From positions 116,139,589 through 116,203,588 of the forward strand of contig NC_092374.1 of the NCBI RefSeq assembly GCF_030028105.1: a stretch of 64,000 nt of DNA, in the 5' to 3' direction. This DNA is from Mobula birostris. Taxonomy: Eukaryota. Position numbers and translations under genes: made by a program. Position 1 is the first letter of the stretch. The number at the start of each line of letters is the position of its first letter. Shown here in pieces: positions 1-59,354 of the stretch. The notes below the pieces were generated by a model. The model was given only the letters and a program-made list of their open reading frames with translations. It made no database searches and was not told the DNA's origin.

Positions 1-897
1 AGTATGTGGGAAGTCAGGGACAGCACAATTGTCCCTGATGCCCACACCTGTGAAAGGTGCATCCAGCTGCAGCTCCTGACAAACCGAGTTGGGAACTGGA
101 GCTGGATGAACTTCGGATCATTCGTGAGGCAGAAGCAGAAATAGACAAGAGTTTCAGGGAGACAGTCACCCCTAAAAGTCAGGAGACTGGTAGCTGGGTG
201 ACCGTCAGGAGAGGAAGGGTAATAGGCAGAAAGAGCAGAGCACCCCTGTGGCCGTTCCCAGCAACAATAAGTACACTGTTTTGGATACTATAGGTGGGGA
301 CAACCTACCAGGGACAAGTTGCAGTGGTCGCGTCTCTGGCACCAAGACTGAACCCTCAGCTCAGAAAGGAAGGAGGGAAAAGAGGAGAGCAGTAGTGATA
401 AGGGATTCGATAGTTAGGGGGGGGCAGATAAGAGGTTCTGTGGGAGAGATCGAGAATCCCGGATGGTCTGTTGCCTCCCTGGTGCCAGGGTCCACGATAT
501 CTCAGATTGAGTTCCTGGTATTCTCAGGAGGGAGGGTGAGCAGCCAGATGTCGTGGTCCATGTAGGGACCAATGACATGGATAGGAAGAAGGAGGAGGTC
601 CTGCAAAGAGAGTTTAGGGAGTTAGGTGCAAAGTTGAAGGACAGGACCTCCAGGGTTGCAGTCTCAGGATTGCTACCCGTGCCACGTGCTAGTGAGGCTA
701 GAAATAGGAAGATGATGCAGCTAAGTACGTGGCTAAGGAGATGGTGCAGGAGGGAGGGCTTCATGTTTCTAGACGATTGGGCTTTTTTCCAGGGAAGATG
801 GAACCTGTTCCGATGGGACGGTCTGCACCTAAACTGGAGGGGGACTAGCATCCTTGGGGGTAGATTTGCTAGTGCTGCTCTGGGGGGTTTAAACTAG
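1..897 (+). pseudogene. CR1 ORF1 (N-terminal Cys motif/coiled coil + SGNH/GDSL esterase domain), frameshifted
   Basis: Pieces in ORFs 57-293, 248-565 and 553-897: ELELDELRIIREAEAEID, RDSIVRG, VHVGTND, DGLHLN. Confidence 0.9.
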
Positions 898-941
898 ATT
901 TGCAGGGGGAGGGGAACCAGAGTGTTTGAGCAGATAGTGAG

Positions 942-3811
942 GTGGAGGAGGATAAAGGTCATGCGAGGACTGCATGTATAGACAGAAATCAAAGGATTAT
1001 ACATGATAGAAATGTTCTCAGGTGCACCTATTTCAATGCAAGGAGTATTGCAGGTAAGGAAGATAGGCTTAGGGTGTGGATTGGCATGTGGGATTACGAC
1101 ATTATTGCTATTAGTGAGACTTGCTTGCAGGGGGGGCAGGACTGGCAGCTTAATGTTCTGGGGTTCCGTTGTTTCATACGTGATCGAGGGGGAGGGATGA
1201 AAGGGGGAGGAGTGGCATTACTAGTCAGGGAGAATATCACAGCTGTGCGTAGACGGGACAGCCTGGAGGGCTTGTCTACAGAGACCATATGGGTGGAGCT
1301 GAGGAAAGGGAAAGGTGTGACCACACTAATCGGGTTGTATTATAGACCGCCCAATAGTCAGAGAGAATTGGAGGAGCAAATCTGTAGAGAGATAGCAGAC
1401 CGATATAAGAAACATAAAATTGTAATAGTAGGGGATTTTAACTTTCCACATATTGACTGGAACTCCCACACTGTGAAAGGGCTAGATGGCTTGGAGTTTG
1501 TCAAATGTGTTTAGAAAAGTTTTCTAAATCAATATATAGAGGTATCTACGAGAGAGGATGCAATATTTGATCTCCTATTAGGGAACCAGAGAGGTCATGT
1601 GACAGAAGTATGTGTAGGTGACCATTTTGGGTCCAGTGACCATAATGTCATTAGTTTCAAGTTAATTATGGATAAGGATAGATCTGGTCCTCGAATTGAG
1701 GTTCTAAATTGGAGAAGGGCCAATTTTGTGGAAATGAGACAGGATCTAGGAAGAGTGGATTAGGATAAATTGTTTTCTGGCAAGGATTTGTTCAGTAAGT
1801 GGAAGGCATTCAAAGGCAAAATTCTGAGAGTGCAGAGTTTGCATGTTCCTGCCAGGATTAAAGGCAAAGTAAACAGGCATAGGGAACCTTGGCTTTCAAG
1901 GGATATTAGCAGTCTGGTTAAGAAAAAGAGAGAGGTGTATCGCAAGTATAGGCAACAAGGAACAAATGAGGTACTTGAAGAGTATAGAAAATGTAAGAAA
2001 ATACTAAAGAAGGAAATCAGGAAGGCAAAAAGAAGACATAACGTTGCTTTGGCAGATAATGTAAGGGTAAACCCGAAGGGTTTCTACAAGTATGTTAAGA
2101 GTAAAAGGATAGTAAGGGACAGAATTGGTCCCCTAGAAGATCAGAGTGGCCGTCTATGTGTGGAACCTCATGAGATGGGGGAGATCTTAAACAGTTTTTT
2201 TGCATCAGTATTTACTCAGGAAACTGGCATAGCATAATTGGAAGGAAGGGAAACAAGCAGTAGTGTTATGGAACATACAGAGATTAAACAGGAGAAGGTG
2301 CTTGCTGCCTTACAGTGAATAAAGGTAGATAAATCCCCTGGGCCTGACATGATATTTCCTCGGACTTTGAGAGAGACTAGTGTAGAAATTGCAGAGGCCC
2401 TGGCAGAAATATTTAAAATGTCCTTAGCCACGAGTGTGGTGCCGGAGGATTGGAAGGTAGCTCATGTTGTTCCGTTGTTTAAAAAAGGCTCCAAATGTAA
2501 ACCAGGTAATTACAGGCTGGTGAGCCTGACATCAATAGTAGGTAAATTATTGGAAGCTGTTCTGAGAGATCAGATATACAAGTATTTGGACAGCTAAGGG
2601 CTGATTAAGGATAGTCAGCATGGCTTTGTGCGTGGTAGATCGTGTTTAACAAATCTTGTGGAGTTTTTCGAGGAGGTTACCAAGAAAGTAGATGAAGGAA
2701 AGGCTGTGGATACATGGCCTTTAGTACGGCATTTGAAAAGGTCCCACATGGGAGGTTAGTTCAGAAGGTTCAGACACTAGGCATCCATGGAGAGGTTGTA
2801 AACTGGATTTGAAATTGGTGTGTGGGAGAAGACAGAGCGTGATAGTGGATGATTGCTTCTCAGACTGGAGGCCTGTGACTAGTGGTGTGCCTCAGGGATA
2901 TGTGTTGGGACCATTGTTGTTTGTTGTCTATATCAATGATCTAGATGATAATGTGGTAAATTGGATCAGCAAGTTTCGTGATGACACTAAGATTGGAAGC
3001 ATTGTGGACAGTGAGGAAGGCTTTCAAGGCTTGCAGAGGGATCTGGACCAACTGGAAAAATGGGCCAGAAAATGGCAGATGGAATTTAATGCAGACAAGT
3101 GTGAGGTGTTGCATTTTGGAAGGACAAATTAAGGTAGGCCATACACAGTAAATGGTAGGGCACTGTGGAGTGCAGAGGAACAAAGGGATCTGGGAGTTCA
3201 GATACATAATTCCCTGAAACTGGCGTCACAGGTGGACAGGGTTGTAAAGAAGGCTTTTGGCATCCTGGCATTCATAAATCAAAGTACTGAGTATAGGAGT
3301 TGGGATGTTATGGGGAGACTGTATAAGATATTGATGAGGCCAAATTTGGAGTATTGTGCGCAGTTCTGGTCACCTACGTAACTATAGGATGGATATCAGT
3401 AAGATTGAAAGAGTGCAGAGAAGATTTACTAGGACGTTGCCAGGTCTTCAGGAGTTGAGTTACAGGGAAAGATTGAACAGGTTAGGACTTCGTTCCTTGG
3501 AGCATAGAAGAATGAGGGGGAATTTGATAGAAGTTTACAAAATTATGAGGGGTATAGACAGAGTAAATGTGAGTAGGCTCTTTCCACTTAGATTAGGAGA
3601 GATAAATATGAGAGAACATGGCTTTAGGGTGAAAGGGGAAAGGTTCTGGGGGAACATTAGGGGGAACTTCTTCACTCAGAGAGTGGTGGGAGTGTGGAAT
3701 GAGCTGCCACTTGATGTGGTTAATGTGGGCTCACTCTTAAGTTTTAAGAATAAATTGGATAGATACATGGATGGGAGAGGTCTGGAGGGTTATGGACTGG
3801 GTGTGGAATAA
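942..3811 (+). pseudogene. CR1 ORF2 (endonuclease-reverse transcriptase) with multiple stops and frameshifts
   Basis: ORF fragments 942-1514, 1770-2237, 2349-2597, 2809-3132 and 3356-3811 carry the EN and RT motifs in the expected order. Confidence 0.95.
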
Positions 3812-4223
3812 AGTCTCTGCACAGACTAGAAGGGCTGAATAGCCTGTTTTCTGTGCTGTACTGTTCTATGGTTCTATGGGAATAAAGGGATCCTATTCTG
3901 GCTGGCTGCTGGTTACTACTGGAGATTCACAGGGGTCGGAGTTGGGACCGCTGCTTTTTACCATGTATGTCAATCACTTGGACTATGGTATTAATGGATT
4001 TGTGGCTAAATTTGCTGCTGATACAATGATAGGTGGTGGAGTGGGTAGTGTTGAGGAAACAGAGAGACTGCAACGAGATTTAGATAGTTTAGGAGAATGG
4101 GCAAAGAAGTGGCAAATGGAAAATAATGTTGGAAAGTGTATGGTCATGCACTTTGGTGGAAGAAATAAATGGGCAGACTATTATTTAGATGGGGAGAGAA
4201 CTCAAAATGAGGAGATGCAAAGG

Positions 4224-4259
4224 GTCCTGACGAAGGGTCTCGGCCTGAAACGTCGACTG
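4224..4259 (+). ncRNA. Minimal type-I hammerhead ribozyme motif (Penelope-like-element type, palindromic helix III)
   Basis: gtc + CTGACGA (4227-4233) + stem II gggt-ctcg-gcct + GAAA (4247-4250) + CGTC (putative GUC cleavage site) + gac pairing with the upstream gtc. Confidence 0.75.
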
Positions 4260-4317
4260 TACCTCTTCCTAGAGATGCTGCCTGGCCTGCTGCATTCACC
4301 AGCAACTTTGATGTGAA
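4225..4317 (+). mobile_element. 93-bp Penelope-terminus-derived insertion carrying a minimal hammerhead ribozyme motif
   Basis: 10-bp TSD atgcaaaggg (4215-4224 / 4318-4327) inside the CR1 frame; contains CTGACGA-stem-GAAA-CGTC-GACTG. Confidence 0.85.
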
Positions 4318-5042
4318 ATGCAAAGGGACTTGGGAGTCTGTGTGCAGGATACCCTAAAGGTTAACCTCCAGGTTGAGTCAGTGATGAAGAAGGTGAATGC
4401 AATTTTGACATTCTTTTCTAGAGGTATAGAATATAAGAGCAAGGATGTGATGTTGAGGCTCTATAAGGCACTCATGAGACCACATTTGGAGTATTGTGTG
4501 CAGTTTTGGGCTCCTTATCTTAGAAAGGATATACTGACATTGGAGAGGGTTCAGAGGAGAGTCACGAGAATGATTCCAGGAATGAAAGGGTTACTGTATG
4601 AGGAACATCTGGCAGGTCTTTGCTGTATTCCCTGGAGTTCAGGAGAATGAGGGGGGATCTCATAGAAACATTCCGAATGTTAAAATGCCTGATCAGATTA
4701 GATATGGCAAAGTTATTTCCCATGGTAGGGGAATCTAAGATGAGAGGGCATGATTTCAGAATTGAAGGACGTCCATATAGAACAGAGATGCTGACTTTAG
4801 TCAGAGGGTGGTATATCTGTGGAATTTGTTGCCACGAGCCATGAGCGGCTGTGGAGGCCAAGTCATTGGGTGCACTTAAGGCAGAGATAGGTAGGTTCTT
4901 CACTAGCCAGGGCATTAAAGGGGTATGCGGTGAAAGCAGGGGAGTGGGGATGACTGGAAGAATTGGATCAGCCCATGATTGAATGGCGGAGCAGACTTGA
5001 TGGGCTGAATGGCCTACTTCTGCTCCTATACCTTATGGTCTT

Positions 5043-5225
5043 AACTTCAAGTTTAATTTAAGTGAGGCACGCATATACTGTACCATGTGGTAGTGTAATG
5101 ACGTATGCAATTAACACATTTTTACATATAGCATATAACTAATTATTTAACCAAACAAGAATGCTCTATCAAACAACATATTCAGAGGATTACTCAAACA
5201 TAACTGAAATATTAAATACATAACA
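5043..5225 (-). repeat. 3' LTR (truncated at the CR1 junction)
   Basis: Aligns by eye to ~7323-7505; immediately preceded on the minus strand by a polypurine tract. Confidence 0.88.
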
Positions 5226-5562
5226 CTCCTCCCTGCTTAACTATAAACTCCAACTCAATAGAGAATGTATTTCAACTCTAGAAACAGTATACTATAAAAT
5301 ACAATTACCATATAAAGATATACATGGCATAGTAAATTTTTAATGATCCCATTCAGGGCTAAAGATTCAATTGCTGTGGAAGATTTCTTACTCTTGTGGG
5401 ATAACATCTTTCCTGACGAGGAGGATCACTCTGCTAGGCAGGTGCGACTAGTCGCTGTGACACAGTCTCTGGTTTCAGAGCCTCCTCCTTCGTGATTGTA
5501 GGAGTTGTCTCTGAGATGGCAGGAAGAGGTTCTGACAGCTCTGGACACTTTTCTTCTCCTTT

Positions 5563-6186
5563 CCTCTCTCTGGATCTACTTTTCTCCCTTTCTTTTACAC
5601 AATTCTCTTTCTTGTTCACATTCTTTCTCTCCATCTCTTCTGTGCTCTTTCTTCTAGTTTGTGCATCTTGATTTTGGGAAGGTCCATTTAGTTCACTGGA
5701 ATATTCTTTTGTTAATGCTTCTATTGGTCTCTTTAGAATTTGATCTCTCCTCTTGGTTTCCTCATCCACAACATCATCTGACAGGTTCTCTGTTTTCATA
5801 TCTCCATTGACTCCTTTCTTGCCTTCTGTTTTTCCATCTGGGCTTTGGTCTTTGCATCTACTTTTACAAGCAGCTTTTTGTCTCCCACTTGAAGTTCATG
5901 CAATAACCTTAACGCACAGAGAATAGATTCTGGTTCTATATACTCACAAACGCCGAATGCTTGAAACTTTCCTGAAGGTCCTTGAATGTTGTTCCAGCTG
6001 AACACCAAGCTGCATTTCGCAATCAGCTGCCTGATAAACATACCAGAAGCTCTCTCAGATACATTGTCTATGAAAATGTAGTCAGATCACTGATTTCATC
6101 ACTTTCATGCTTTCTCTGAGCAGCATGGTCCTTCTTTGGTCCGATATGCTTTCAACTAGAGGCACAGAGGTTGGCACCAACACTGT
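5563..6186 (-). pseudogene. RBM25: Processed (intronless) RBM25 retrocopy fragment: pre-RRM segment, RRM, linker, part of RE/RS-rich region; frameshifted
   Basis: Translates to TVLVPTSVPLV.KHIGPKKDH...NVSERASGMFIRQLIAKCSLVFSW..QGPSGKFQAFGVCEY.EPES.L.ALRLLHELQVGDKKLLVKVDAKTKAQ...DEETKRRDQ.LK..IE.L.KEYSSELN.PSQ...EREKSRSRER; recognised from memory as vertebrate RBM25 (QGASGKLQAFGFCEYKEPESTLRALRLLHDLQIGEKKLLVKVDAKTKAQ; DEETKRRDQMIKGAIEVLIREYSSELNAPSQ). Confidence 0.93.
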
Positions 6187-6224
6187 TTGCCCTCTATCGG
6201 CTGATGGTTTATGGTGTTCGGCAT

Positions 6225-7020
6225 GAAGATAGTAGTGGCATCATCCAGTAGCTTTCTTAATTGGCTTGTAGTTGGCTTTGTGGCAGGAAATGTGGCATGC
6301 AAGTGGTAGATGGATCTCCGATCAAATTGTAATTGTTTCAGCCAATCAATCACAACACCAGACTACTGGGCCTTCTGTTTTTACCACATACAAGCTTAAT
6401 GTGGCTTGTTGGTTGTTATATTTCACAGTTACAGATGTCATTCTCACATGAGTTAGCTTTTTTCCAGAATAAGTTCTTAGTTGGATATCTGCAAGCTTCA
6501 GTTTGGTATCTTTGAAATGCCTTCTAAACTTATTTTGTGGAACGACTGAAACATCTGAGCCAGTGTCCAGTTCCAGTTTAATTATTTGCCGCTCACTTCT
6601 GTCATAAGCCATGTTGCTTGTCTATTATTACTTTTCATATTGTAAATCTCAAGGCTAGTCAGTTCTGTCACTCACATCATTATCAGATTTTTCATCAACA
6701 TCATGCAGATTAGTACTGTTTTTGAAACTGTAACTTGACTTATTATCTTCTCCTCTCTGTGCAGTCCATTTTTTTTGTCTGCTTAATGTGCTCATTGTAT
6801 GCGTCCTACTTTGTTGCATTTTCTGCCAGTTCCACCTTTAAACCTGCAATGGTCTGATGCATGTGAGCCCACACCACAATGGTAACACAATTTGTTTGGT
6901 CAGGCTGGTTTCTGTTTAGGTGTTACTATTTTATTCACGGTCACTTTCATTCCTGACTGTAACTTAATTCTGTCTCTGTCTGTTGTTTCCGTTGATACTG
7001 CGATCTCCGCTGCTCACATT
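6225..7020 (-). pseudogene. Gypsy gag C-terminus (zinc knuckles) and retropepsin protease remnant
   Basis: CYHCGVGSHASDHC knuckle at ~6845-6890; KLELDTGSDVSVV...LRTYSG in ORF 6346-6612; DWLKQLQFD linker. Confidence 0.85.
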
Positions 7021-7254
7021 TATGAAACCTGAATTCTTCCATTTACAGCCTTTTTATTTAAACTCAATTGTGTCTTCCCTTTTGAAGAACATATGCTGGC
7101 TTCTTTTGTTTTAAACTTGACCATCTCTTCATGTGCTGTGCTGTTTCTTTCACACTCCGCCATTTACTCGACATTCCTCTGCGTTCTTTTTAGTATGACA
7201 GTTTCACTGCGCTTGAAATGTCTCGGGTTCACTTTTAAAATACTTTGTCACCAA

Positions 7255-7505
7255 TATCATGTTTTCTAACCTCAAACATTGAATTAATTCAAATGAAGTT
7301 GGGAATCTGACAATACGGGTGTAACTTTAAGTTTACTTTAAGTGAGGCACGCACGTATCATGTGATAGCGTGATGAAACATGCAATTAATGTAATTCTAC
7401 ATAGAACTTGTAATAAATTAGTTAAACAAACAAGAATGCTTAATCAAACAACATACAGCATTTACAGGATTATTCAAATAAAACTAATATATTAAATACA
7501 CAACA
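7255..7505 (-). repeat. 5' LTR followed by primer-binding site
   Basis: Starts TGTTG on minus; followed by TGGTGAC; direct repeat of 5043-5225. Confidence 0.85.
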
Positions 7506-7717
7506 CACACAATACTCTAAATATAGTTTATCCACTGTTTTTTACATCTGTGACATGGCTTCCCAACTTTGAACTCAGTGTTATGGCCAATGAAGACAAG
7601 CATGTCATAGGCTTTTATCACCTTCCTGTCTGTGATGTCACCGTGATGGTTACTTTCACGAATTCCTACTTTTATACACGCCAGGTTAAGATTTTACAAT
7701 CTCTTCATCTTTTTCAG

Positions 7718-11597: not shown

Positions 11598-11735
11598 CAA
11601 GAGAAAATCTGCAGGTGCTGGAAATCCAAGCAACACCCACAAAATGCTGAAGGTACTCAGCAGGCCAGGCAGCATCTATGGAAAAGAGTACAGTCAACAT
11701 TTCAGGTCGAGACCCTTCATCAGGGTTCATCAGAA
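11598..11735 (-). mobile_element. Penelope-terminus short repeat with decayed hammerhead motif
   Basis: Minus strand CTGATGA-agggtctcgacct-GAAA-tgtt-gactg...agatgctgcctggcctgctg, homologous to 4225-4317; inserted in the R4 RT. Confidence 0.85.
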
Positions 11736-27565: not shown

Positions 27566-28329
27566 CTCTGAGATGTTCCATCCTCAGTAGAAAATTCCAC
27601 AAAAATGTTGTGGATCAGGTTCTGAAACATCGGCTCTTTATTCCTCTCTACAGATGGTGCCTTACCTGCTGCGAACCTCCAGCACTTTATGTCCTCCTTG
27701 GATTTCCAGCATCTGCAGAATCCTTTGTGCTTATGAGTAATAACTGTGATTGCGCAGTTCACTGACATGATTGCAGCCCCTGTCGTCCCAATGCAGTCCA
27801 AAACTTTTCTCAGTGCAAGTATTGTCTCAATAGAATCCTGTCTCAGTACAACTTCTATCTGTTAAACCATGCTGAAACCATTATCACATGTATGCAAGCA
27901 ATTCCTGTAAGTCTTAATTTCTCAGTGTTTATTAGAACAAAGCTCAGGTATAAGAGTTCCAGCAATTTCTTTGGAAACAAAACTAACACGGCTGCCCACA
28001 ATCATCGACTCCTTACTAAGGTTCTGTTTCTCACCATCACTGCCTACACTCAGAATCTTTTGAAGCATGATCCTCTCAAGATATGATAGAATGGGAAAAA
28101 TGTTTTTCAACAAATGTCACAAATTGTAGAGCATTAACTCAGTTTTCCAGCCCAGATAAGGCAGTCCGTCACTCATCCTGCAGTTAATCCTGCAGTTATC
28201 AGCACAGTGCTGGCTTGAAGTTCTTAAAGCCAGATTTTCACACTTAAGCATATCTTGCGTTTGCAGAGTAGCAGGAGTTGTAGTGAGACTCATTCTGACA
28301 AGGATAACAATGTGTTAATAACAATATGG

Positions 28330-57019: not shown

Positions 57020-58478
57020 TGCTGTCCTCATCAGCATCTCCACCATTTCCCACACAACTGCCCGCAGCCCTTCTTCCACCTTTCTTAACAGAATGGAGTT
57101 CCCCTGGTCCTTATCTACTATCCCATGAGCCACCGTACATTTTCTATGCAGATCATTCTCTGTAACGTCCGCCATCTACAACAGGATCCAACCACTAAGC
57201 ACATCTTACCCTCCTCTACCACTCTCTGCTTTCAGTAGGGATCACTCACTAAGGGACCCCCTTGTCCACTCATCCTTCCCCATTGATCTCCCTCTTGGCA
57301 CTTATCCCTTCTATCAGGATGAGTGCTGCATCTGTCCCTACTCCTCCGCCCTCACCACCACTCAGGGCCCCGGACAGCCTTTGCCAGTGAGGCAACACTT
57401 TATTGGGGCCATCTATTGTATTGGAGTGGCCTCCTCTGCATCAAAGAGATGGAAGACAGCTCCTTTGAGAACCTTCATTCCATCTGCCAGAAAAGGCAAG
57501 AATTCTCGTGGTCATCCACTTCAATCCAACCTCCCACTTCCACTTCAACATGTCTCTCCATAGCGTCGTCTACTGTGATGAAGAGGCCACACTCAGGTGG
57601 GAGGAATAATACCTCATATTCCATCCTAGGTAGCCTCCAATCTGATGGCATAAGCATTGATTTTTCTAACTTCCAATAATATCTCCCCTCCTCCCCATTT
57701 TCTCTTTTCCATTCCCCATTCTGATTCTCCTCTCATCCCTTCTCTTCATCTGCCCTACAGATTCTCCTCTTTCCCTTTCTTCCATGGATCTCTGTCCTCT
57801 CCTACCAGATTCCTCCTTTTTCAGACCTTTATCTCCTCCACCTATCAGCTTCCAGCTTCTCACTTCATCCACCCTCCCACCCACACACCTTCCCCCTCAC
57901 CTGGTTTCACCTATCACCTGCCAGCTTGTACTTCTTTCCCCTCTTTCACCTTCTTATTCTGGCTTCTTTCCCCTTCTTTTCTCATCATATAAATATACAA
58001 CGGGGGGGGCGGGAGGGTCTTGAGTTAGAAAGTGCTCTGTAAGAGAAGGATTTGGCTGTCTTGGTAGACTTATCACTAGCAACCTCTGGACAATGCACAG
58101 AAGCAATTAGGAAGGCTAATACATTGTTGGGCTATATAATGCACTCAGTGGAGTTGAAATCCAGAGACGTTCTCCTTAAGCTGTATAATGTGTTCGCGAG
58201 GCCACACCTTGAGTACAATGCACAATTTTAGTATCCATATTTTGTGACGGATACAAAGAGATTTTCAAATCTAAACTTGATAGTTATTTCACAACACTAT
58301 GTGAATAGAAATTTGGCTAGCTTTGTTGGGCCGAATGGCCTGTTCTTGTCAAAAGACTTTCTAATGTACATGAAGAAGAGCCTTGACCTGAAACGTCAAC
58401 TGTTTATTCCTCTCCACAGATGCTGCCTAATTTGCTCGGTTCTTCCAACATTTTGCTGTTGCTCAGGATCTGTAGAAA
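57020..58478 (+). mobile_element. Penelope-like element 3' part (GIY-YIG endonuclease remnant, pyrimidine-rich 3' UTR, terminal hammerhead-like motif), interrupted by CR1
   Basis: VPLVL.Y.P, QQDPTTKHI, PLSAF, SLRDPLV, C.ICPY, AIYCI, HFN, HLIF.LGSLQ.DG.SIDFSNF; terminus tgaaga..GAAACGTCaactg at 58371-58402. Confidence 0.85.
57988..58368 (+). mobile_element. CR1 fragment inserted into the Penelope 3' region
   Basis: EKDLAVLVD, KANTLLGYI, RPHLEY; ttgttgggccgaatggcctgttct 3' end. Confidence 0.8.
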
Positions 58479-58530
58479 CTCTGGTGTATATGATATATTT
58501 CAAGCAGCTTTTATAATATAAAAAGAAACA

Positions 58531-58665
58531 CAGTCCTGAAGAAGGGTCTTGGCTCAAAATGTCGACTACTTGTGTGTTTCCATACATGCTGCCTGACCCG
58601 TTGTGTTCCTCCAGTATTTTGTGTATTGCTTTGGATTTCCAGCATTTGCAGAATTTCTCATGTTT
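58531..58665 (+). mobile_element. Penelope-terminus short repeat with decayed hammerhead motif
   Basis: cagtc-CTGAAGA-agggtcttggctc-AAAA-tgtc-gact...atgctgcctgacc...ccagtattttgtgt...ggatttccagcatttgcag. Confidence 0.8.
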
Positions 58666-59354
58666 ATAATTTAAATTATCTCAGTAAAAAAAATAAATTT
58701 GTCCTGGTGTAAGTTCCATCAGTTGAAGCCATTTGCTCCTTTATTTGGTTTTATTGGGTTAAAAACCTAAAATTTAATAACAGAAACTGATTAAGGTAGC
58801 ATGAATTCAAAGTAATGGTGACTATTAGAGTCATTAAGATTTTCACAAAATGAATAGGAGAAAGGATGGATTAATGAAGGAAGGCTGTGCCTATTGAATT
58901 TATTTAAAATTACAGAAATTCAACTGAATGTCAAATGAAGATGCAATAGTTTCAATTACATATTGCATTGGAAGGCATTGGACAGAGGGTTTTGAAGAAA
59001 GGTTTATATAAAAACCAACAAATAGATGGACTTAAGGGTTGAAGAATTAAAACTGATTAAAAATGATTTAGACAATCCAAACCAGATCCCACTTATGAAT
59101 AGTTGTAAATTAAAAAGGAGAATGATGACTACAGGCACCTAACAATTAACAAGTCATGACAACCGGAGCATTAATTTGTGTATGCAGATTCATTGAAAGA
59201 ATTCTAATGGTATCAGTGAAAATAAGAGCTGAACAATTAGGTAGTATGCTGATTAATACATCTACATAAAGCAACCAACCATTGGAAAGATGAAGAAAAG
59301 AGAAAAGGAACAGGGTGATTGGATAAAGCATTGTGAATTACATCCATATATAGA

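What the first reader, a model, noticed from the sequence alone, without database searches (positions are those of the whole stretch)
5043..7505. Gypsy LTR retrotransposon whose RT/RNaseH/integrase is replaced by a captured, intronless RBM25 mRNA fragment
Seen, in order on the minus strand: 5' LTR, PBS, Gag zinc knuckle, LDTG protease, ~620 bp encoding the RBM25 pre-RRM segment + RRM + linker + RE/RS-rich piece, Gypsy pol C-terminal tail (CPELSEPLPA...QERCYPTRVRNLPQQLNL), PPT, 3' LTR. The host fragment is in the element's sense orientation and contains no intron. I see no poly(A) or TSD around it. Established: RBM25 is a conserved multi-exon spliceosomal RRM/PWI factor, and LTR elements can capture cellular mRNA by RT template switching, as in retroviral oncogene transduction. 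Inference: the element transduced a spliced host mRNA while keeping all cis signals (LTRs, PBS, PPT), so the chimera may have spread as a non-autonomous family carrying a splicing-factor RRM. This copy is decayed (frameshifts, visibly diverged LTRs).
Basis: partly seen in the sequence, partly recalled or inferred. Interest (0 to 1): 0.85.

Follow-up and report, generated by a model that had tools for sequence, protein, structure and literature searches.

The report
Retrotransposon family carrying captured RBM25 mRNA
This is one old, decayed copy of a jumping gene whose copying enzymes were replaced by a spliced piece of the host splicing-factor gene RBM25; the hybrid then spread to more than 1,100 places in this genome, with the host piece likely riding along as a passenger.

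Summary
Confirmed and extended. The element is a Gypsy LTR retrotransposon whose ~3 kb RT-RNaseH-integrase block is replaced by RBM25 sequence (window 6240-5550). I found the host gene (C1) and the piece joins its exons with no intron; the family-wide capture runs over nine exons. Pol-bearing parent copies exist in the same genome and share 7-nt and 9-nt stretches with the mRNA exactly at the two switch points, the mark of template switching. The chimeric 5' junction occurs 1,125 times (control 2); 40 of 40 exact-match loci fetched carry RBM25. Whole elements have 5-bp target duplications, including this copy, whose 3' LTR is split by 11.4 kb of LINEs. LTR pairs differ by about 0.24, the tree is star-like, and the RBM25 piece decays neutrally (N/S about 1.0-1.15), so no function is shown. 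Four other organisms' runs hold the family; two span this very insertion. The mechanism is published (Tan 2016; maize Bs1, 1-5 copies); the scale is what stands out, and I found no paper on it. This scan noted the same family six times before on other DNA.

The parts
7506..7510 (-). 5-bp target site duplication (GTGTG), left copy; the right copy follows the displaced end of the 3' LTR outside the window
7255..7505 (-). 5' LTR, 251 bp
   Evidence: ends defined from other copies
7243..7253 (-). Primer-binding site, decayed match to the 3' end of tRNA-Ser(GCT)
   Evidence: PBS rows of 49 copies; tRNA-Ser(GCT) genes called in 3 of 3 loci
6790..7240 (-). Broken gag remnant with CCHC knuckle(s) (first at about 6887-6846); about 0.5 kb missing near 7016-7034 relative to 2 of 3 fuller copies compared
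6346..6621 (-). Aspartic protease remnant, LDTG at 6570-6559
   Evidence: weak Pfam PF13975/PF00077 below cut-off
6241..6345 (-). Protease-RT linker shared with pol-bearing parent copies
6234..6240 (-). 5' switch point: 7-nt stretch shared by parent pol linker and RBM25 mRNA, in the reading frame of both
5634..6240 (-). Captured RBM25 exons joined without introns: end of exon '0', 48-nt exon X, exons a, b, c, d (RRM at about 6080-5860); 83% identity to host, four frameshifting deletions
5588..5649 (-). Piece of RBM25 exon f (RE-rich), after deletion of exon e
5550..5581 (-). End of exon f plus start of exon g; 3' switch point with 9-nt shared stretch at 5558-5550
5359..5549 (-). Gypsy pol C-terminal tail, which follows integrase in parent copies
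5226..5238 (-). Polypurine tract
   Evidence: sequence, same in other copies
5042..5225 (-). 3' LTR, first 184 bp; interrupted at 5042 by an 11.4-kb block of LINE sequence; remainder at about G000:C6:116133125-116133191

Best explanation
This is one dead copy of a non-autonomous Gypsy LTR family in which a spliced RBM25 mRNA segment replaces RT, RNase H and integrase, likely made by one double template switch during reverse transcription and likely spread to over 1,100 sites by enzymes borrowed from intact relatives, with the RBM25 piece likely a neutral passenger. Shown: intron loss, replacement of pol, shared switch points with microhomology, copy number floor, 5-bp TSDs, neutral decay in copies. 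Inferred: co-packaging of RBM25 mRNA in the particle, RT jumping onto it at the 7-nt match in the protease-RT linker and back at the 9-nt match near the integrase end, trans-mobilisation, and later deletions in the purine-rich RE region that founded shorter subfamilies, to one of which this copy belongs.
For: Host gene found with introns of 1.8-6 kb between the captured exons. Five junctions are crossed without intron in 29-37 of 40, 29-37 of 37 and 20-24 of 24 copies; no intron end is retained beside the piece in 106 held stretches. Parents diverge from the window at 6235 and 5558 and carry RT, RNase H, integrase in that order. Microhomology of 7 and 9 nt; chance 0.00067 and 0.000095 per random switch. 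Chimeric junction 1,125 matches, control 2; 40 of 40 exact-match loci have RBM25, 0 of 20 parent-junction loci do. 5-bp TSD: 8 of 20 full-ended copies match at 4-5 of 5, control 1.6%. Star-like tree of 89 copies, terminal sum 9.4 versus internal 0.6. N/S 1.15 (1.00-1.31) and 1.03 (0.91-1.21), while host-versus-copies differences are 17-19 synonymous to 5-10 non-synonymous, so the test does see constraint where it exists. Exon-e-bearing copies keep host-like codons (7 of 8 scorable), exon-e-less copies mostly carry derived ones (62 of 74).
Against: No intact autonomous element was found among the parent loci examined; all are decayed. A star-like tree means most counted changes arose after insertion, so selection on the few source elements is weakly tested; the RRM-only interval reaches down to 0.66 in one sample. 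The several 3' structures could in part reflect recombination with parent RNA or a second capture rather than deletion (L153 ends in integrase sequence). TSDs are not recognisable in 12 of 20 copies. The distance-modulo-3 test of frame was uninformative.
Confidence: 0.85

Rival explanations
1. Same origin, but the captured piece helped the element spread: either a Gag-protease-RRM fusion was made by the source elements, or the RBM25 RNA improved stability, export or escape from silencing, or made small RNAs against RBM25.
For: The 5' switch is in frame and one natural copy has 333 stop-free codons from the protease end through the RRM. The segment holding the RRM is kept in most copies while the RE-rich part is lost in several ways. 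Capture-bearing telomeric TEs of Drosophila have higher copy numbers (PMC13534243, passages); LTR-made retrocopies give silencing RNAs in Plutella (PMC9674220, passages).
Against: N/S about 1 overall and in the RRM; widely shared variants are not depleted of non-synonymous changes (12 of 199 synonymous versus 25 of 378 non-synonymous possible transitions). One in three random switches is in frame. Parent-type junctions outnumber chimeric ones 2,395 to 1,125, and capture-free deletion derivatives exist. No chimeric protein among 22 candidates in the protein collection.
Confidence: 0.11
2. A LINE-made RBM25 retrocopy landed in a Gypsy element, pol was then deleted, and the product amplified.
For: CR1-like LINEs are abundant here, including inside this copy's 3' LTR; Helitrons in bats amplified LINE-made retrogenes this way (PMC4224331, section 16).
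Against: The piece is internal coding sequence, ends about 30 nt into exon g with no 3' UTR or poly(A), has no TSD, and both ends lie on sequence shared with pol. Two later deletions would each have to end on those matches.
Confidence: 0.03
3. The copies arose by segmental duplication or are assembly artefacts.
For: 2 of 3,916 copy pairs are under 10% apart, so a few are duplicates.
Against: Copies are dispersed over many contigs with individual TSDs and about 18% mean pairwise distance; contigs of four other organisms' runs hold the family.
Confidence: 0.01

Closest known systems
LTR-mediated retrocopies of animals (Tan et al. 2016, PMC5131818; abstract and passages read)
   Same: Partial spliced mRNA replaces part of the internal ORF, sense orientation, microsimilarity at switch points (median 6 bp), no poly(A) or TSD around the piece, further retroposition as a non-autonomous element.
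   Different: There, 18 insertion sites for nine fly retrocopies and 5 of 7 zebrafish retrocopies; here one capture reached at least 1,125 copies, formed deletion subfamilies and is old and shared between species.
Maize Bs1 (as described in PMC5131818 and PMC13317346, passages)
   Same: LTR element with captured spliced host segments; all copies share switch points.
   Different: Bs1 has 1-5 copies, three donor genes and a translated chimeric gene; here one donor, >1,100 copies, neutral decay.
Pxyfem of Plutella xylostella (PMC9674220, passages)
   Same: Template-switch retrocopy next to gag, multi-copy.
   Different: 11 clustered W-linked copies with a silencing function; here dispersed and no function shown.
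Helitron-amplified retrogenes of Myotis (PMC4224331, abstract and section 16)
   Same: Host mRNA multiplied inside a vertebrate transposon.
   Different: DNA transposon, LINE-made inserts with poly(A) and TSD, 118 copies over four cases.
Mag-lineage Ty3/Gypsy elements (PMC3286476, table 1 and passages)
   Same: tRNA-Ser PBS, 5-bp TSD, short LTRs.
   Different: Clade not tested by an RT tree; this is a resemblance only.

Membership tests
LTR-mediated retrocopy (Tan 2016) | Intronless copy of a multi-exon host mRNA | tested here: met
LTR-mediated retrocopy (Tan 2016) | Flanked on both sides by the same LTR element, whose internal ORF is discontinuous (replaced, not interrupted) | tested here: met
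   about 2.8-3.0 kb of pol lies between the same two points in parents L229, L230, L237
LTR-mediated retrocopy (Tan 2016) | Microsimilarity at switch points | tested here: met
   7 nt and 9 nt
LTR-mediated retrocopy (Tan 2016) | No poly(A), no TSD around the captured piece | tested here: met
LTR-mediated retrocopy (Tan 2016) | Co-transcribed from the LTR | tested here: inconclusive
   no usable RNA run; past transcription is inferred from re-insertion with TSDs
Non-autonomous LTR retrotransposon family | Two LTRs, PBS, PPT, TSD, no RT/IN, many dispersed copies with one structure | tested here: met
Ty3/Gypsy superfamily (parent) | Domain order PR-RT-RH-IN | tested here: met
   Pfam RVT_1, RT_RNaseH, Integrase_H2C2, rve in order on L230; RNase H then integrase on L237 (43 of 238 listed frames scanned)
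Mag lineage | PBS for tRNA-Ser or -Leu and 5-bp TSD | tested here: met
Mag lineage | RT phylogeny groups with Mag | not tested
   no reference RT set fetched; protein search with the window protease found nothing
Functional retrogene / domesticated capture (Bs1-like) | Intact frame under purifying selection | tested here: not met
   N/S about 1; median 2-4 frameshifting indels per copy in the two sets not chosen by protein score
LINE-mediated processed pseudogene | 3' end with poly(A) and own TSD | tested here: not met

The most novel reading that the evidence does not exclude
A vertebrate Gypsy element gained an advantage from a host splicing-factor mRNA: the in-frame Gag-protease-RRM fusion or the RBM25 RNA itself drove the burst to thousands of copies, and may have put the essential host gene under small-RNA attack.
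Probability: 0.11. Interest if true: 0.82.

Novelty: new variant of a known kind. Interest (0 to 1): 0.52.

Why it matters
It shows that one LTR-mediated mRNA capture in a vertebrate can become a whole repeat family of over a thousand copies, two to three orders of magnitude above the cases in the papers I read. The copies are a dated fossil of an old RBM25 transcript, including a 48-nt exon absent from three bony-fish proteins compared, and a shared marker for relationships among cartilaginous fishes. In practice they would inflate or confuse RBM25 gene and retrocopy counts, and a repeat library holding this family would mask coding exons of an essential gene (inference).

Tried and rejected
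PWI family search found other genes, not RBM25; the host gene was found with a gar RBM25 C-terminal stretch. Protein search with the window protease: 0 of 93 candidates. Search for annotated protease-RBM25 chimeras: 4 hits of 22 candidates, all plain RBM25. PDB sequence search gave only generic RRMs. Frame test by motif distance modulo 3: uninformative because of indels. An insert exactly at the X/a junction in L141 looked like a retained intron but does not match the host intron. LTR-pair dating of parent loci: 0 of 20 passed the score filter. Expression: no RNA holder listed, which says nothing either way. No substitution rate was found for dating in years. Literature searches without a report of this family; RBM25 occurs 0 times in the main text of the VGP Phase I preprint (PMC13320880, passages), whose supplements I did not see; Repbase/Dfam could not be searched.

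Full report
Observation. The minus strand of 7505-5042 holds a 5' LTR, PBS, gag remnant with CCHC knuckle, LDTG protease, an RRM-coding stretch, a pol tail, PPT and 3' LTR. The LTRs are 77% alike over 190 columns. The frame 5796-6086 matches RRM_1 weakly and RBM25 strongly: 147 hits among 228 candidates, 120 listed, best 70% identity to a shark RBM25. The window lies at G000:C6 in a 4.0-Gb genome; host exons 89-100% identical in protein to that shark point to a cartilaginous fish.

Host gene. A C-terminal RBM25 stretch located the gene on C1; 190 kb around it gave its exons. The window piece matches, in order and without introns, the last 10 nt of exon '0', a 48-nt in-frame exon X, exons a-d, part of f, and the f/g junction (exon labels are mine). 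Five junctions were scored in three sets of copies and are crossed in 29-37 of 40, 29-37 of 37 and 20-24 of 24. Intron ends gave two hits in 106 held stretches, both far from the captured piece. Exon X is in the shark protein P0001 but absent from P0108, P0115 and P0024; whether it is a cassette exon was not tested.

Family. A DNA search with the piece gave 2,876 first-look candidates (40 scored), a protein search 5,640 (150 scored); these are not copy numbers. A 22-nt pattern across the 5' chimeric junction, up to 2 mismatches, matched 1,125 places (control 2); the parent version matched 2,395 (control 0). All 40 exact-match chimeric loci fetched carry RBM25 and none of 20 parent loci does; hits with mismatches were not checked one by one. 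Only 40 of 64 copies chosen by other criteria pass the pattern, so about 1,800 is a rough estimate, itself from well-preserved copies. Of 30 loci chosen by the pol tail, 19 had over 100 bp of RBM25 within the first fetch and three more after extension.

Parent and switch points. Loci with the same LTR, gag, protease and tail but RT, RNase H and integrase between them exist. They leave the window sequence at 6235 and rejoin at 5558. At the 5' point parent and mRNA share 7 nt, in the reading frame of both; at the 3' point 9 nt. Random switch points give such matches with probability 0.00067 and 0.000095. Nearly all copies begin at the same mRNA position. This is the pattern Tan et al. describe (PMC5131818, abstract and passages).

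Mobility as a unit. In 20 of 100 copies with both outer ends recognisable, 5-bp flanks match at 64% versus 27% for cross pairs, and 8 of 20 match at 4-5 of 5; lengths 4 and 6 show little. The window copy's 3' LTR continues 11.4 kb away beyond a block of LINE sequence and is followed by GTGTG, the same five bases that precede the 5' LTR. The PBS fits tRNA-Ser(GCT); with the 5-bp TSD this resembles the Mag lineage (PMC3286476, table and passages), which I did not test by tree.

History. LTR-pair distance has median 0.235 in the 38 of 100 copies that passed the filter. A tree of 89 of 101 copies (those with at least 80% cover) is star-like; copies average 18% from each other and 13% from the host. 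Longer copies with exon e keep host-like codons at two positions (7 of 8 scorable) and lack a 1-nt deletion found in 46 of 74 exon-e-less copies, so longer forms likely came first and deleted forms later; the window copy is of a deleted type. Twenty runs of nine coded organisms hold words of this stretch; four were laid, all cover the RBM25 part and show the short-subfamily joint, and contigs of organisms B and D span the 5' LTR-flank boundary (8 differences and 7 gap letters in 404; 9 and 13 in 252), so this insertion likely predates their split. Depths there are not copy numbers.

Function. Variants in copies against each column's commonest letter, CpG sites left out, give N/S 1.15 (1.00-1.31) in the 40 junction-chosen and 1.03 (0.91-1.21) in the 37 DNA-chosen copies; RRM only 1.04 and 0.84 (0.66-1.11). 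Host-versus-commonest differences are mostly synonymous (17-19 versus 5-10), as expected if the host gene stayed constrained while the copies froze an older state. Against a pure passenger reading: the 5' switch is in frame, one natural copy has a 333-codon open frame through the RRM, and a star tree gives little power for selection in the source elements.

Novelty. The mechanism and secondary spread are published; Bs1 has 1-5 copies, bat Helitron retrogenes 118 copies over four cases. Eight literature searches showed no report of this family; repeat databases and the VGP preprint's supplements were not seen. The scan's index holds six earlier notes on the same chimera in other DNA and none for this genome; they are unchecked AI notes, read after my own result, and add no independent support. 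Verdict: a real, clean and unusually large case of a known process; function not shown.

Noticed in passing
window 1-5041 and L188 (G000:C6 about 116133192-116144629): The 11.4-kb block inside the 3' LTR holds CR1-like remnants and a much better preserved LINE with frames of 458 and 899 codons and a further frame with an RNase H-like motif (labels from recall, not scanned).
   Followed up: partly
L153 (G000:C26:49761116-49767682): RBM25 piece followed by integrase-end sequence instead of the usual 3' junction: likely a recombinant with parent RNA.
   Followed up: no
L180, L181, L182: Capture-free derivatives that rejoin the pol tail at the same purine-rich point as the chimera, suggesting a switch hotspot.
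   Followed up: partly
G000:C17: 67 of 78 exact matches to a tRNA-Ser(GCT) 3' motif are spread along contig C17; one was confirmed as a tRNA gene.
   Followed up: no
G000:C1:154450900-154450947: 48-nt in-frame RBM25 exon with good splice sites, conserved with a shark protein, absent from three bony-fish proteins.
   Followed up: partly
window 11602-11724, 27638-27719, 57580-58673: Other matches to a parent copy's internal pol stretch; may be further family fragments or a repeat inserted in that parent.
   Followed up: no
G000:C1:154378804-154406559: Two LTR pieces of this family lie 36-64 kb upstream of the first RBM25 coding exon found; probably chance given family size.
   Followed up: no
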